Of a stretch of 64,000 bases of DNA, positions 6,460-49,660 are shown in pieces. Source of the DNA: Octopus vulgaris (Eukaryota). Location: positions 103,726,001-103,790,000 of the forward strand of contig OX597820.1 in NCBI GenBank assembly GCA_951406725.2, given 5' to 3'. The first letter of the stretch is position 1, and each line of letters opens with the position of its first letter. The notes beneath the pieces are model-generated. The model did no database searches. It saw nothing but the letters and a program-made list of their open reading frames with translations, and had not been told where the DNA came from. The translations under genes were made by a program, and so were the position numbers.

Positions 6460-6705
6460 AGTCTACAAATTGTGTCGGAGTCTAAATTAATTCCAAAGAC
6501 AAAAACGTAAAACTCTTCTTGAAATAAACATTAGATTCTTCGGCAGGAATTACATACTGCTATGAATAATTACGAACAGCAAAAATTATTTTATTATCTG
6601 TTCGTTCTCGTCTTGGCTATGAAAGGTCATTGTATATTTTTGTTGGTTGTAATTATTTATACCAGTATGTAATTCCTGACGAAGAATCTAATTGTTATTT
6701 CAAGA
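6460..6705 (-). mobile_element. decayed Penelope-like terminal repeat with hammerhead remnant and inverted duplication
   Basis: 70-bp inverted arms 6517-6586 / 6636-6705; minus strand reads ctg(c/a)cga-agaatctaa...ttagactc-cgaca-caatttg-ta. Confidence 0.45.
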
Positions 6706-7214
6706 GATACCATCAGGGTCTCGATGAAATAAGTACCAGCTGAACACTAGGATCGATGTAATCGACGTATTTCCTTCACCAAATTTTCCGGCCTTGTGCC
6801 AAAATTTAACATCAATATACATACGTGTATGTGTATGTGTGTGTGTGTGTGTGTGTGTATGTATGTGTGTGCGTGTATGTATATAGATGTCAGTGAGTTA
6901 ATTTCTGGGAAAATAGGTGAAAATACATTGATCTATTTGTCCTTATTCCTTTCGTCTACATTTTAAGAGAAAATGTACGTCAGAATGGCTAGGTAGTTTA
7001 ACAAGACGGACAATGTTCAGATACATATTTCTTAATATATAGGTCACCGTAGGTATGTGTGTATCTGTGTATGTATATATATATATTGTATGTATGTATA
7101 TATTTTGTATGTATATATATATTTATATGTATATATACACACACACATAAATATATATATATACACATACATACATATATACATACACATACACATATAT
7201 ACATATGTATATAT

Positions 7215-7530
7215 ATAAGTGGATGAAATAGAGTCAAGTAGGAGTACGGTTAGACAGTTATTTAATAAACACTACACATGTTTTGATATAACATAGATCC
7301 ACGTATACACAGGATTTAAATTAAGCAACGGTTTACCTGTATAATGGGATCCGATTTTATTTCCTCAGGTGATATAGAATTGCTGTCCCCGTTGTTAGTA
7401 AAGCTTTGACTTCGACACTAATACTGGCTCGTTTGAATCTAGGAGACGCTGGAAGTTCCATTCCGTCCGTCTGTCAATGTGCCTCTGAGCGGCATTGGAT
7501 GCACTGACTGTCCACTTTGTCTCACATGTT
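7215..7530 (-). mobile_element. Penelope-like terminal repeat fragment with degenerate hammerhead (7270-7371)
   Basis: minus strand cac-CTGAGGA-long stem II (ggatcc..tacagg/cctgtg..ggatct)-c-AAAA-catgtg-TA-gtg; lies between TA-rich microsatellites. Confidence 0.5.
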
Positions 7531-8680
7531 TGGTTGCACATGCTAAATTTTATTTCGCAAATACACTCACAATACCCACACACATATACACACTAACTAC
7601 ATCCCTGGGCATCCCAATACATATATATATATATAATATATATATATATATATATATATATATATATATATATATATAAAACTGAGAATGTGTGTCTGTC
7701 TGTGTGTTTCCTGTCTAAAACTTGAGCACTACACAACCAATTTCATTCAAATTTTACACATGCCTTACTTAAGGTCCGAGGAGTGTCATCGGCAAAAACA
7801 TTTTAACTTTTTCCCTATGGCGACTCCACAGCAATATCATATCTCCTCCACTATTTCAGTATTACGTGTTAAAAGTGAAGCAAAAACATCTCTCTATTGT
7901 AATGCAGACACTCACTTTAATACTGAAACTATTAAAGTGAAAGTATTATATAACAGGGATGAACCATTAACAGTGGTCATCCATTTTGCTAGAAAAAGAT
8001 CCGCTATGGTCTTGTATGCTACACCACTGGTTTTCAATTCATATTAATCAAATTAATATTCAATTTTTCACCCTTATTATGTGTGTGTATTAGCAATTCG
8101 TATAAAATTGCATCAATGACTTGAACTTGAATAAGTGGTTTCACATAAATGGGTCATAAATTAAAAAGGTTTGTTATTATTATTACTGTTTGACTATTGT
8201 AATCACGTTTGTTGGTTCCTCGTCAGGGAAACGTTGTTGTGTTGCATTTGTTAAATAATTGTAAACCGTAACCCTCCCCCTTTCGGAGAAGGGGCTTTGG
8301 TTATTGCTTAAAAATTGAATTGTATCCCTGATTGGGGAAATTGACAATATTTTCACCGTCTTTACGGAAGCATTTTTCTTAAAATGCCTTCGATAGAAGA
8401 AAGTCCAAAAATGAATTTCGCTGCAACCATACACTTCTATACAAGAGGGAGGACAAGATCCAATTGATCGAAATTGCAAGAGACGGGCCTACGATTCCAG
8501 TCTGTTATATATTTTGAGTATTGTTATCACTAGCGATATCAAGATATAACTTTGTATTTTGTATTTTATGTGTAGATGTATATATATAGATGTACATGTA
8601 ATATGTATACATATATATACACATATATACATGCATAATATATCTACCCATACACACATACGCACACACACACATACATA

Positions 8681-8824
8681 GGGGCAGGTGTAGCTGTGTG
8701 GTAACAAACTACGTTCCAAACACATGGTCCTGGGTTCAGTCCCACTGTGTGGTGACTTGGCATGTGTCTTCTGCTGTAGCTTCAGCTTCAGACCAACAAA
8801 AGCCTTCTCAGTGGATTTTGTACA
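8681..8824 (+). mobile_element. SINE family A 5' fragment
   Basis: head similar to the 16683 copy. Confidence 0.8.
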
Positions 8825-9108
8825 TATATACAAGCATACATACATATATATACATGCATACGTACATATTCGGCATAAACACTCTACCACTACAACTAAT
8901 AACTGTTGGGAACACTTTCAAATCTGCCTTACATACGATCCGGAATTTCAAAATCATTGTCCCTTACATCTCATTCTTATTTCATTCCCAACACAGGGAA
9001 ATAAAACTTACTTCTCACAACGGGAGAATGGATGATGGTAACAGATATTTACCACATATACCTTATCAAGTGAAGTATATTGTCATCCACTTCACCTCTA
9101 ACCGGCAT

Positions 9109-9516
9109 AAAGTACTTAAAATGTGTCATCTAATTGTCTGGGATGAGTGCACTATGGCTCACAAGGGAGCTTTGGAAGCATTAGATAGAGCCCTGAAAGA
9201 CACCCGAGACTGTCAGTTTCCAATGGGAGGTGTAACGCTTCTGTTGTCAGGTGATTTCAGGCAAACTCTTCCTGTCCCTCCGAAAGGCACTAGAGCAGAT
9301 GAAGTCCAAGCATGCCTAAAGTCCTCTACCCTGTGGCATCGTGTTACAATCCTCAGATGAGAGCTCAGCTACACGGCGACAAAATGTCCACAAAGTTTGC
9401 ACAGGACATTTTGACACTTGGTGAAGGCAAGATGCCTCTGTTGTTAATTCTGTAGATGACCTCAAAAACAAAGTCTTTCCCAACTTCACACAAACTACCA
9501 AAATCACAATTGGCTG
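9109..9516 (+). pseudogene. Helitron PIF1-like helicase fragment
   Basis: LIVWDECTMAHK (Walker B), MGGVTLLLSGDFRQTLPV, ACLKSSTLW, then frameshift and NYQNHNWL. Confidence 0.9.
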
Positions 9517-9653
9517 TACACAGCTACCGACCCACAGTCGACGCTACGGCGACCAGGGCTCGCTCTGGACGACGTAGAGGCGACTGTACACGGCTACCGA
9601 CTCCCACAGTCGACGCTACGGCGACCAGAGCTCGCTCTGGATGACGTAGGGGT
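9514..9653. repeat. GC/CpG-rich tandem repeat, 2 x ~70 bp
   Basis: ctgtacac..ctaccgac..cacagtcgacgctacggcgaccagRgctcgctctgga..gacgtag begins at 9514 and 9584. Confidence 0.9.
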
Positions 9654-46980: not shown

Positions 46981-47439
46981 ATTCTTTTATTTGTTTCAGT
47001 CATTTGACTGCGGCCATGCTGGAGCACCGCCTTTAGTCGAGCAAATCGACCCCAGGACTTATTCTTTGTAAGCTTAGTACTTATTCTATCGGACGCTGTT
47101 GACGAACCGCTAAGTGACGGGGACATAAACACACTAGTATCGGTTGTCAAACGATGTTGGGGAGACAAACACAGACACACAAACAGATACACACACACAC
47201 ACACACACACACACACACACACACACACACACACACACACACACACACATATATATATATATATATATATATATATATATATACAACGGACTTCTTACAG
47301 TTTCTGCTTAACAAATCTTCACACGAAGTTTTGGCTGTCCGACGGCTGTAGCAGAAGACACTTGCCCAGGTTCTCACGCAATGGAATTGAACCTGGAACT
47401 CTCTGGTTGAGTACCAAGCTCCTTACTACACAGCTGCGC
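46981..47439 (-). mobile_element. SINE family A
   Basis: reverse complement similarity to family A. Confidence 0.9.
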
Positions 47440-47514
47440 ATATATAGATAAATATATACATGTATACATACACACACGTGATTCTATATGTGTATATTGA
47501 TTATAGAAAATAGT

Positions 47515-47730
47515 CTGACAAGGGTCTAAACATAGAGGGGACAAACAAGGACAGACAAGCGGATTAAGTCGATTACATCGACCCCAGTGCGTAACTGGCA
47601 CTTAATTTATCGATCTCGAAAGGATGAAAGGCAAAGTCGACCTCGGCGGAAATTGAACTCAGAACGCAGCGGCGGACGAAATACCGCAAAGTATTTCACA
47701 CGGCGTGCTAACGATTCTGCCAGCTCGCCG
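47515..47730 (-). mobile_element. SINE family B
   Basis: reverse complement similarity to family B. Confidence 0.9.
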
Positions 47731-48037
47731 CCCTGATATTGGCTTATATAGACGCCTCGGTGGAAGAATAGGCATTAGTTCGCGTGTGTGTTCGATTCCT
47801 GCGAGTGCTAATACTCATTTTTTTTCAGTCGCGGGTTTAATATGTTCCAGTATTAGACTATTTTCTATACTCAATATATACTGTGAAAACGTAGAATCAT
47901 ATTAACAAAATTTTCACCCGTCACTATTTCTTAACTCAAACAATATATATATATTTATATATATATATATATATATATATATATATATATATATATATAT
48001 ATAAACACACACACACACACACACACATATATATATA

Positions 48038-48459
48038 GGCGCAGGAGTGGCTGTATGGTAAGGAGCTTGTTTACCAACCACATGGTTCCGGGTTCAGTCC
48101 CACTGCGTGGCACTTTGGGCAAGTGTCTTCTACTATAGCCACGGGCCGACCAAAGCCTTGTGAGTGGATTTGGTAGACGGAAACTGAAAGAAGCCCGTCG
48201 TATATATGTATATATATATATATATGCGTTTGTGTGTTTGTGTGTCTGTGTTTGTCCCCCTAGCATTGCTTGACAGCCGATGCTGGTGTGTTTATGTCCC
48301 CGTTACTTAGCGGTTCGGCAAAAGAGACCGATAGATTAAGTACTGGGCTTACAAGAGAATAAGTCCCGGGGTCGAGTTGCTCGATTAAAGGCGGTGCTCC
48401 AGCATGGCCGCAGTCAAATGACTGAAACAAGTAAAAGAGTAAGAGTAAAAGAGAGAGTA
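48038..48459 (+). mobile_element. SINE family A, full length
   Basis: near-identical to the 16683 copy. Confidence 0.92.
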
Positions 48460-48679
48460 TATATATATCCACACTCGCGCGCGCATATGCTCACGCGTCA
48501 CTGCCGTGGGCCAGCTAGAACAAAAAGAGCACCGCCAAACTCACAGACAAATTCCACAGTTCTGTTTTCTTCTTCTTCTTATGTAGTATGCCTGCAAATA
48601 AATATTCTATCTCGACTTTTGTTTTCTTTTAATTATAAATTGCATAAGACATACTTAATCCTGGACCCACTCTACATGT

Positions 48680-49660
48680 TTACATGTGTATGTGTATTTG
48701 TATGTATATATGTGTGTATGTGTGTATACATATATATATATATACACATATATATATATGCAAATATATATATACATATATACATATATATACATACATA
48801 TATATACATGTATACATATATATATATATATACATGTATACATATATATATATATATACATATTTATACATGTATGCATATATATATGTATGCGTGTGTA
48901 TATATATATATATATATGCATATATATATCCATATTTTTAAGCGGTCTTAGGCCAACAGGTTTTGGGACCTGACGATATGCCATAAAGCTAAATCCTTTA
49001 AGAACGGGAAACCTAAGGTAATCCCATAAACCGGCCTTCCCCATTTTTAGTATAAACTGCTCTATACTTTAGAGTGTGCTTCTTTCGGATTTATGTTTTT
49101 TTACAAACCATATATATAGGTATGTATATATATATATATATATATATATATATATATATATATTGTGTGTGTGTGTGTGTGTGTGTGTGTATGTATATAT
49201 ATATATATATGTATGTATATATATATATGTATATATATATATATATATGTATATATATATATGTATGTATATATATATATTATTTTTTTTATATATATAT
49301 GTATATATATATATATATGTATATATATATATATATATATGTATATATATATATATGTATGTATATATATATATATATATATATATGTATGCATATATGT
49401 ATATATATATATATATATGCATATATGTATATATATATATATATATATTATATATATATATATATATTTGCATATATATATATATATATAATATATGTAT
49501 ATATATATATATATATGCATATATATGTATGTATATGTATATATATATATATATATATATATATATATATATATATATATATATATATATATATATATAT
49601 ATATATATATATATATGTATATATATGCACATATACACAGGTACATAGATAGATAGATGT
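48680..49660. repeat. long (TA)n-rich compound microsatellite interrupted by a 175-bp element
   Basis: direct reading. Confidence 0.95.
48964..49026 (+). ncRNA. type I hammerhead candidate in a ~175-bp element (48935-49110) inside (TA)n
   Basis: tgggac-CTGACGA-..taaag/cttta..-GAAA-c-ctaag-g-TA-atccca. Confidence 0.55.

What the first reader, a model, noticed from the sequence alone, without database searches (positions are those of the whole stretch)
6460..49110. At least six further, mutually unrelated hammerhead-bearing mini-elements, mostly tied to TA microsatellites
Besides the array, CUGANGA...GAAA...UH arrangements with very short, often palindromic stem III occur at 6464-6546(-), 7270-7371(-), 19000-19045(-), 36128-36211(+), 39197-39231(-) and 48964-49026(+). 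Most also have a short pairing stem I, and some have one or two core mutations. Their flanks share no visible similarity, and most end in or lie near (TA)n. Inference: a diverse community of Penelope-derived ribozyme elements targets or seeds TA repeats at roughly one per 10 kb, which standard repeat annotation would miss.
Basis: partly seen in the sequence, partly recalled or inferred. Interest (0 to 1): 0.72.

Follow-up and report, generated by a model that had tools for sequence, protein, structure and literature searches.

The report
Hammerhead-tipped Penelope ends in TA repeats
The six ribozyme-like motifs are real: each is the broken-off 3' end of a different high-copy Penelope-like jumping gene, five of the six families favour TA repeats, and such motifs likely number around 100,000 in this likely octopus genome, but the element type is known and self-cutting is untested.

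Summary
All six motifs are at the stated coordinates. Each belongs to a different dispersed repeat family; the families share no sequence (best E 0.10). Every family majority has an intact type I hammerhead core and a palindromic or near-palindromic stem III. All six window copies carry damaging changes, and only one passes my descriptor. In 500 kb from elsewhere in the genome, perfect hammerheads number 25 against 0.22 in shuffles. They are not autonomous 'mini-elements'. Longer copies run into broken reverse transcriptase/GIY-YIG genes: four Hydra-type, one Penelope/Poseidon-like and, on weaker evidence, one Neptune-like. The 3' end abuts (TA)4 in 13-18 of 30 copies in four families, 6 of 30 in a fifth and 1 of 30 in the Penelope-like family, against a null of 1.6%. 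The young neighbouring array family has TA on both sides in 21 of 23 insertions and no TA tract of its own, which favours targeting over seeding. Hammerheads in Penelope ends and Hydra (TA)n targeting are published, including an octopus family. What is notable is the load, roughly 55,000-150,000 intact-motif sites. The scan reported this system before on other DNA of this genome.

The parts
6381..6586 (-). S1: 3' end of a Hydra-type Penelope-like element, left arm of a head-to-head pair; damaged hammerhead at 6464-6546; no TA run at either outer end
6587..6705 (+). S1 inverted arm, with intact CTGACGA at 6676-6682 but cut off before GAAA
7213..7629 (-). S2: 3' end of a Hydra-type element, long stem II hammerhead at 7270-7371 (G12 to A); TA runs at 7208-7217 and 7621-7678
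18953..19105 (-). S3: end of a Penelope/Poseidon-like element, minimal hammerhead at 19000-19045 (GAAT); followed by a TA run at 18927-18951, atypical for its family; the (AAT)n run upstream belongs to the element
35662..35897 (-). S4 inverted arm carrying the long 3' tail, ending at the TA run 35644-35661
35957..36270 (+). S4: 3' end of a Hydra-type element, long stem II hammerhead at 36128-36211 (stem III palindrome lost)
39101..39926 (-). S5: about 830-nt 3' part of a probably Neptune-like element, minimal hammerhead at 39197-39231; TA runs at both ends (39042-39100, 39928-39950)
48929..49110 (+). S6: 3' end of a Hydra-type element close to Hydra-1_Obim, hammerhead at 48964-49026; TA runs on both sides (48899-48929, from 49110)
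12623..14060 (.). Context: 548-nt tandem plus inverted array with CCGATGA-variant hammerheads (12928-12992-, 13477-13541-, 13810-13874+) inside TA runs; used to test targeting against seeding
900..978 (-).
44952..45009 (-).

Best explanation
The six motifs are the hammerhead-bearing 3' ends of six unrelated high-copy repeat families whose longer copies run into broken Penelope-type reverse transcriptase/endonuclease genes, and they were likely left by target-primed reverse transcription that began just downstream of the ribozyme at a nicked TA repeat and stopped early. Shown: fixed 3' ends, variable 5' ends, inverted second arms, upstream coding remains and TA adjacency. Inferred: the element's protein binds its RNA; the linker-bearing endonuclease of Hydra and Neptune types nicks (TA)n, while the linker-less Penelope/Poseidon type does not prefer it. 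Copying starts at one of two or three fixed internal sites 30-200 nt apart. Because the hammerhead sits 50-250 nt upstream of these sites, even the shortest remnants keep it. The palindromic stem III suggests the ribozyme cuts only as a dimer or with protein help, in the RNA of active elements. Inserted single copies, such as these six, are probably dead and decaying.
For: Families: six own-genome searches, 40 candidates scored each, out of 315, 566, 3850, 266, 3480 and 2385 first-look candidates for S1-S6. Copies with all 11 core bases and the cut-site base intact: 14, 12, 24, 17, 21 and 19 of 30. Fixed 3' and ragged 5' ends. Inverted left arm in 19 of 28 S6, 9 of 30 S3, 8 of 30 S4 and 3 of 30 S2 copies. 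Coding links: the S2 end lies downstream on the same strand in 13 of 24 non-self GIY-YIG loci, and the S3 end 0.86-1.07 kb downstream of the RT match in 8 of 14 non-self loci. S6 and S4 long copies carry RT (LYRDD) and endonuclease remains. S1: endonuclease and ribozyme on one strand in L353. S2, S4 and S6 show CxCx5C; S1, S2 and S6 show CxxC..E..N..CxH; these are the Hydra marks of PMC8557442 section 11. The S6 RT piece matches Hydra-1_Obim at 51 of 72 residues (by eye). TA after the 3' end: S1 13, S2 15, S4 6, S5 18, S6 17, S3 1 of 30; null 1.6%. Array family: 21 of 23 unique insertions have TA on both sides, including 8 of 10 without an inverted arm; the unit's longest TA alternation is 6 nt. 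Unbiased sample: 25 strict hits against 0.22; 18 of 25 have a perfectly palindromic stem III, which the descriptor did not require, against 43 of 260 shuffled relaxed hits.
Against: No cleavage or expression data. Only 1 of the 6 window copies passes my descriptor. The S5 coding link is weak: a C-terminal remnant at E 0.005 in L217, one joined fragment in L058, and a sister family 73-80% alike behind Neptune-like genes. The S1 linker is not recognisable. S4 is only modestly TA-linked (6 of 30; 14 of 30 counting other TA-containing microsatellites). At plain 5' truncations of the older families TA is uncommon (S2 2 of 27, S4 2 of 22, S6 3 of 9), so two-sided targeting is clear mainly for the young array family. 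Pfam found only a sub-threshold GIY-YIG hit, in the S5 sister family (E 0.0014). No intact full-length gene of any of the six was recovered, and no tree was built. In vitro, Poseidon priming needed no homology and no ribozyme cut (PMC11167929), so the ribozyme may be a passenger.
Confidence: 0.88

Rival explanations
1. They are non-autonomous retrozyme- or SINE-like mini-elements that are transcribed and copied as short units of their own by Penelope enzymes.
For: Most copies are short (median span about 190-510 nt). S3 copies often start with a tRNA-like head (A/B boxes seen by eye). True tandem non-coding units exist nearby (the array; a 359-nt array in L221).
Against: The 5' ends are ragged, not unit-length, and run into coding remains in all six families. 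The S3 head is part of the terminal repeat of a coding element; ARAGORN found no tRNA in 9 of 9 loci.
Confidence: 0.1
2. The elements seed TA microsatellites, by adding a TA tail or promoting expansion, rather than inserting into them.
For: The 3' side has TA far more often than plain 5' truncations in the older families. Several family ends finish in TA or AT.
Against: The array unit has no TA tract, yet 8 of 10 insertions without an inverted arm have TA at the 5' end too. After the same S5 end the tract can be (TA)n, (TG)n, (TACA)n, (TATC)n or (CA)n. Different families abut one another across one TA run (L271, L272). Later expansion of the tract is not excluded.
Confidence: 0.12
3. The motifs are chance matches in AT-rich DNA, and TA proximity is trivial because TA runs are everywhere.
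For: The window has 174 (TA)4 runs, and 23% of random positions have one within 250 nt. The relaxed descriptor gives 1.5 chance hits per window.
Against: Intact majority cores in 6 of 6 families; 25 against 0.22 strict hits; junction-level TA 20-60% against 1.6% in five families; 11 of 15 assessable sample places have TA within 250 nt downstream against 20.7% (p 1.7e-5).
Confidence: 0.01

Closest known systems
Hydra-clade Penelope-like elements, including Hydra-1_Obim (Craig et al. 2021, PMC8557442; passages, section 11, supplement rows)
   Same: C-terminal GIY-YIG with CxCx5C linker and CxxC/CxH motifs, canonical hammerhead in the 3' part, (TA)n insertion preference; the S6 RT piece is 51 of 72 identical by eye to Hydra-1_Obim.
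   Different: At least four unrelated Hydra-type ends in one window. Stem II regions are 31-77 nt against about 22 nt in the listed Hydra-1_Obim motif, whose sequence differs from all six. Extra 3' tails of about 55-200 nt.
Minimal hammerheads of metazoan PLEs (Cervera and de la Pena 2014, PMC4209133; parts 1-2 of 4 read)
   Same: Type I topology, unpaired base after A9, palindromic short or absent stem III, many unrelated families per genome, mostly single motifs from truncated elements, opposite-strand pairs 100-700 bp apart.
   Different: That paper counted about 2,000-9,000 motifs per genome; my extrapolation is about 95,000 intact places (Poisson range 55,000-152,000), with a different descriptor. 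The parts read do not mention octopus.
Neptune and Penelope/Poseidon clades (clade names from motifs in PMC8557442 and from recall; Poseidon mechanism PMC11167929, parts 1-2 of 4 read)
   Same: The S5 sister family has CX4CXXC before the GIY-YIG and ends at TA. S3 lacks the linker, has two 3' ends 30-45 nt apart and no TA preference.
   Different: The S3 terminal repeat carries a tRNA-like head and (AAT)n. The S5 sister family has U at core position 6. No phylogeny was run.
Non-LTR retrozymes (PMC7229834 passages; bioRxiv 10.64898/2026.07.22.740005 part 1 of 5 and passages)
   Same: Type I hammerheads, link to Penelope-like elements.
   Different: Retrozymes are non-coding tandem units; the six are single truncated ends of coding elements. 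The neighbouring array does fit this class.

Membership tests
Type I hammerhead ribozyme | CUGANGA, GAAA and UH core | tested here: met
   Majority intact in 6 of 6 families; 12-24 of 30 copies fully intact. Window copies S1-S3 have core changes.
Type I hammerhead ribozyme | Stems I, II and III around the core | tested here: met
   Stem I 3-6 bp, region II -2.7 to -30.3 kcal/mol, stem III palindromic in 3 and near-palindromic in 3 families; different sequences pair in 16 clusters of the sample.
Type I hammerhead ribozyme | Self-cleavage at UH | not testable with these tools
   Needs in vitro transcription; 5' starts of 38 unselected copies showed no pile-up at the cut site (small sample).
EN+ Penelope-like elements | RT plus C-terminal GIY-YIG upstream of the ribozyme end | tested here: met
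   S2, S3, S4, S6: both domains, broken. S1: endonuclease only. S5: weak.
EN+ Penelope-like elements | 5' truncation, inverted arm, optional 3' tail | tested here: met
   no inverted arm in 30 of 30 S5 copies.
Hydra clade | CxCx5C linker | tested here: met
   S2, S4, S6; not recognisable in S1.
Hydra clade | CxxC and CxH around conserved E and N, no CCHH | tested here: met
   S1, S2, S6 by eye in broken translations; S4 C-terminus too decayed to read.
Hydra clade | (TA)n insertion | tested here: met
   S1 13, S2 15, S6 17, S4 6 of 30 against 1.6%.
Hydra clade | RWK and DKT motifs; placement in an RT tree | not tested
Neptune clade (S5) | CX2-5CxxC linker and CCHH in the element's own gene | tested here: inconclusive
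   Present in the sister family and in the fragment joined in L058; S5's own gene was not recovered.
Penelope/Poseidon clade (S3) | C-terminal GIY-YIG without linker | tested here: met
   L278 and L282 translations, by eye.
Non-LTR retrozyme | Non-coding tandem units, one hammerhead each | tested here: not met
   The six are single ends with coding remains upstream; met only by the neighbouring array.

The most novel reading that the evidence does not exclude
This genome carries the heaviest hammerhead load yet counted (about 100,000 intact sites from dozens of unrelated families, many with very long stem II). Its Hydra and Neptune enzymes prime at fixed TA-ending sites in their own RNA by pairing with nicked TA repeats, so insertions pile up in, split and enlarge the genome's TA microsatellites, and some intact intronic copies cut host transcripts.
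Probability: 0.2. Interest if true: 0.7.

Novelty: new member of a known kind. Interest (0 to 1): 0.36.

Why it matters
The type is known. The number and variety matter: an order of magnitude more hammerheads than the counts I found in print (about 2,000-9,000 in PMC4209133, about 5,000 in PMC7229834, 14,255 retrozymes in the bioRxiv paper; descriptors differ). They offer natural stem and core variants for cleavage screens. One genome also gives a side-by-side test of the published idea that the cysteine linker directs TA targeting: linker-bearing families sit at TA and the linker-less family does not.

Tried and rejected
Rfam on the whole window: the 150 of 359 rows shown were microsatellite artefacts with no hammerhead among them. 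Rfam on 501 nt around an intact S3 copy gave no hammerhead hit at E up to 5. The repeat finder was swamped by TA runs. Pfam on 10 broken peptides: no family above cut-off. The protein database search returned 3 unnamed proteins, two with PF26215 and one of these also with PF01541. ARAGORN on 9 S3 loci: no tRNA. Start of copies at the ribozyme cut site: no pile-up in 38 unselected copies. The S1 'inverted part' count and most S5 left boundaries are artefacts (self-palindrome in the library; masked CA-rich body) and were not used. The alignment was not used. My first label 'Nematis-like' for S1, S2, S4 and S6 (recalled) was dropped for Hydra. No PLE protein remains were found in the window itself. 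Paper searches: 'hammerhead ribozyme' + 'octopus' gave 5 papers, none counting octopus hammerheads by listing. bioRxiv supplements were closed, and most subscription papers are not searched, so a published count may exist.
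Full report
Setting. The window is G000:C7:103726001-103790000 of a 2.8-Gb genome in 227 contigs, 36% GC and full of TA, TG and TACA microsatellites. It is probably an octopus genome (inference from size, chromosome count and recalled SINEs). I call the six sites S1 (6464-6546), S2 (7270-7371), S3 (19000-19045), S4 (36128-36211), S5 (39197-39231) and S6 (48964-49026).

The observation. My type I descriptor (stems I and II at least 3 bp, closed stem III) gave 2 strict hits in the window against 0.04 in 245 dinucleotide block shuffles, and 7 one-mismatch hits against 1.47. 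With 4-bp stems the count was 1 against 0.27, which is no clear excess. Only S2 of the six was among the hits. Each window copy is damaged relative to its family: S1, S2 and S3 in the core, S4, S5 and S6 in the stems. The test therefore had to come from relatives.

Families. Each site retrieved a dispersed family (40 scored of 266-3850 first-look candidates, which are not copy numbers; 30 loci kept per family, the window copy among them). Majority sequences have intact cores in all six. Fully intact cores are in 14, 12, 24, 17, 21 and 19 of 30 copies of S1-S6; core identity exceeds that of other positions in five families and equals it in S1. Stem I is 3-6 bp. Region II is 12-77 nt and folds as a hairpin. 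The stem III segment is a perfect palindrome in S3, S4 and S5 and a near one in S1, S2 and S6. The families do not resemble one another (best E 0.10). These loci are the best matches to the window copy, so they are not a random sample of each family.

Density. In 50 stretches of 10 kb taken at round coordinates on 28 contigs (499,900 nt), the strict descriptor found 25 motifs against 0.22 in 37 shuffles, and the relaxed one 58 against 11.8. Eighteen of the 25 have a perfectly palindromic stem III, which was not required, against 43 of 260 shuffled relaxed hits. Strict and well-formed hits fall into 16 clusters, one or two of them probably chance singletons. The 25 motifs lie at 17 places (counted by hand; one array gives 7). 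That scales to about 95,000 places (Poisson range 55,000-152,000) or 140,000 motifs. Only S5 (7 hits, sister family included), S3 (4) and S4 (2) appeared in the sample, so the six are a small part of the diversity.

What they are. The 3' ends are fixed and the 5' ends ragged, and many copies have an inverted second arm. Long copies run into broken genes. S6: RT with LYRDD, CxCx5C linker and GIY-YIG; the RT piece matches Hydra-1_Obim at 51 of 72 residues by eye. S2 has the same layout, and its ribozyme end follows the endonuclease in 13 of 24 non-self loci. S4 has RT and linker remains. S1 has a related endonuclease about 1.2-1.4 kb upstream in L353, with similar hits in L349 and L355. These motifs define the Hydra clade, said to insert almost always in (TA)n and to carry canonical hammerheads (PMC8557442 section 11); Hydra-1_Obim is listed with (TA)n preference. 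S3 follows a linker-less Penelope/Poseidon-like gene in 8 of 14 non-self loci, behind a tRNA-like head and (AAT)n. S5 is tied more weakly to Neptune-like genes: a joined fragment in L058, a remnant at E 0.005 in L217, and a sister end, 73-80% alike, in 12 of 25 Neptune-like loci by blastn and 18 of 25 by descriptor.

TA repeats. (TA)4 directly follows the 3' end in 13 (S1), 15 (S2), 1 (S3), 6 (S4), 18 (S5) and 17 (S6) of 30 copies. Counting other TA-containing microsatellites the numbers are 18, 21, 1, 14, 26 and 25; the nulls are 1.6% and 5.8%. In the arbitrary sample 11 of 15 assessable places (2 of the 17 lay too near an edge) have (TA)4 within 250 nt downstream, against 20.7% expected (p 1.7e-5). 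In the window S2, S5 and S6 have TA at both ends, S4 at the end of its inverted arm, S3 at its 3' end, and S1 at neither. For targeting against seeding the young array family is the cleanest test. After merging 30 loci into 23 insertions, 23 have TA on the right and 21 on both sides, including 8 of 10 with no inverted arm, while the 548-nt unit holds no TA run over 6 nt. Against this, plain 5' truncations of S2, S4 and S6 touch TA in only 2 of 27, 2 of 22 and 3 of 9; age and later insertions may explain that, but I did not test it.

Mechanism. Most families have two or three discrete 3' ends: about 30-45 nt apart in S3, about 55 in S6, about 125 in S1 and S2, and about 200 in S4. The long ends are approximate and capped by my reference copies. 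This matches the two internal priming sites and the 'tail' shown for a Poseidon element, whose hammerhead cut only with protein and was not needed for insertion in vitro (PMC11167929). Minimal PLE hammerheads were inactive as monomers and weak as dimers (PMC4209133). So I infer: an endonuclease nick in (TA)n, priming at a fixed internal site downstream of the ribozyme, early termination, often a second inverted arm, then neutral decay. Several ends finish on TA or AT just as the tract begins, which hints at 2-3 nt of pairing; this is weak and contrasts with the non-homologous priming reported for Poseidon.

Novelty. PMC4209133 already describes many unrelated minimal-hammerhead families per genome as truncated PLE ends. 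PMC8557442 describes (TA)n targeting by Hydra, Naiad and probably Neptune elements, octopus included. PMC13282606 (parts 1-2 of 3 and a supplement search) assigns 6.83% of an octopus genome to 190 PLE families. I found no published hammerhead count for octopus. Earlier notes of this scan describe the same system on other DNA of this genome; they are unchecked AI notes and not support. Verdict: real, well explained, new members of known kinds; the load and variety are the remaining interest.

Noticed in passing
L316-L340 (e.g. L322, L329); L242, L247, L250, L257, L262: A young, very abundant Neptune-like family (15,618 first-look candidates, top hits 90-96% identical in protein) has a minimal hammerhead with U at core position 6 (CTGTNGA) in 18 of 25 loci, with position 7 free to vary. 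The one paper search for A6U gave no clear precedent by listing.
   Followed up: partly
window 12623-14060: Array of 548-nt units with CCGATGA-variant hammerheads, 99-100% identical copies on many contigs, 1148 first-look candidates; retrozyme-like and apparently recently active.
   Followed up: partly
L019, L028, L278 (S3 family): The terminal repeat begins with a tRNA-like head (A/B boxes by eye) and (AAT)n before the hammerhead, inside a coding Penelope-like element.
   Followed up: partly
L221:2272-4548: A 359-nt tandem plus inverted array with seven intact canonical hammerheads.
   Followed up: no
L271:1560-2900; L272:1561-3300: Different Penelope-like families sit back to back across a single TA run. 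The element in L272 has a 319-aa open C-terminal frame and no canonical hammerhead found by my descriptor in its end.
   Followed up: no
G000:C2:77217613: A Neptune-like match inside a 1098-aa open frame, possibly a near-intact element.
   Followed up: no
window 39953-40244 and 55577-55752: Palindromic elements; the first lies between TA runs and contains TTAGGG-like repeats.
   Followed up: no
window 45189-45491: Degenerate (GGGTTA)n telomere-like tract, about 180 nt from the hammerhead at 44952-45009.
   Followed up: no
window 43897-44609 and 58789-59678: Two inverted copies, 78-89% alike, of an unidentified repeat of 700 nt or more.
   Followed up: no
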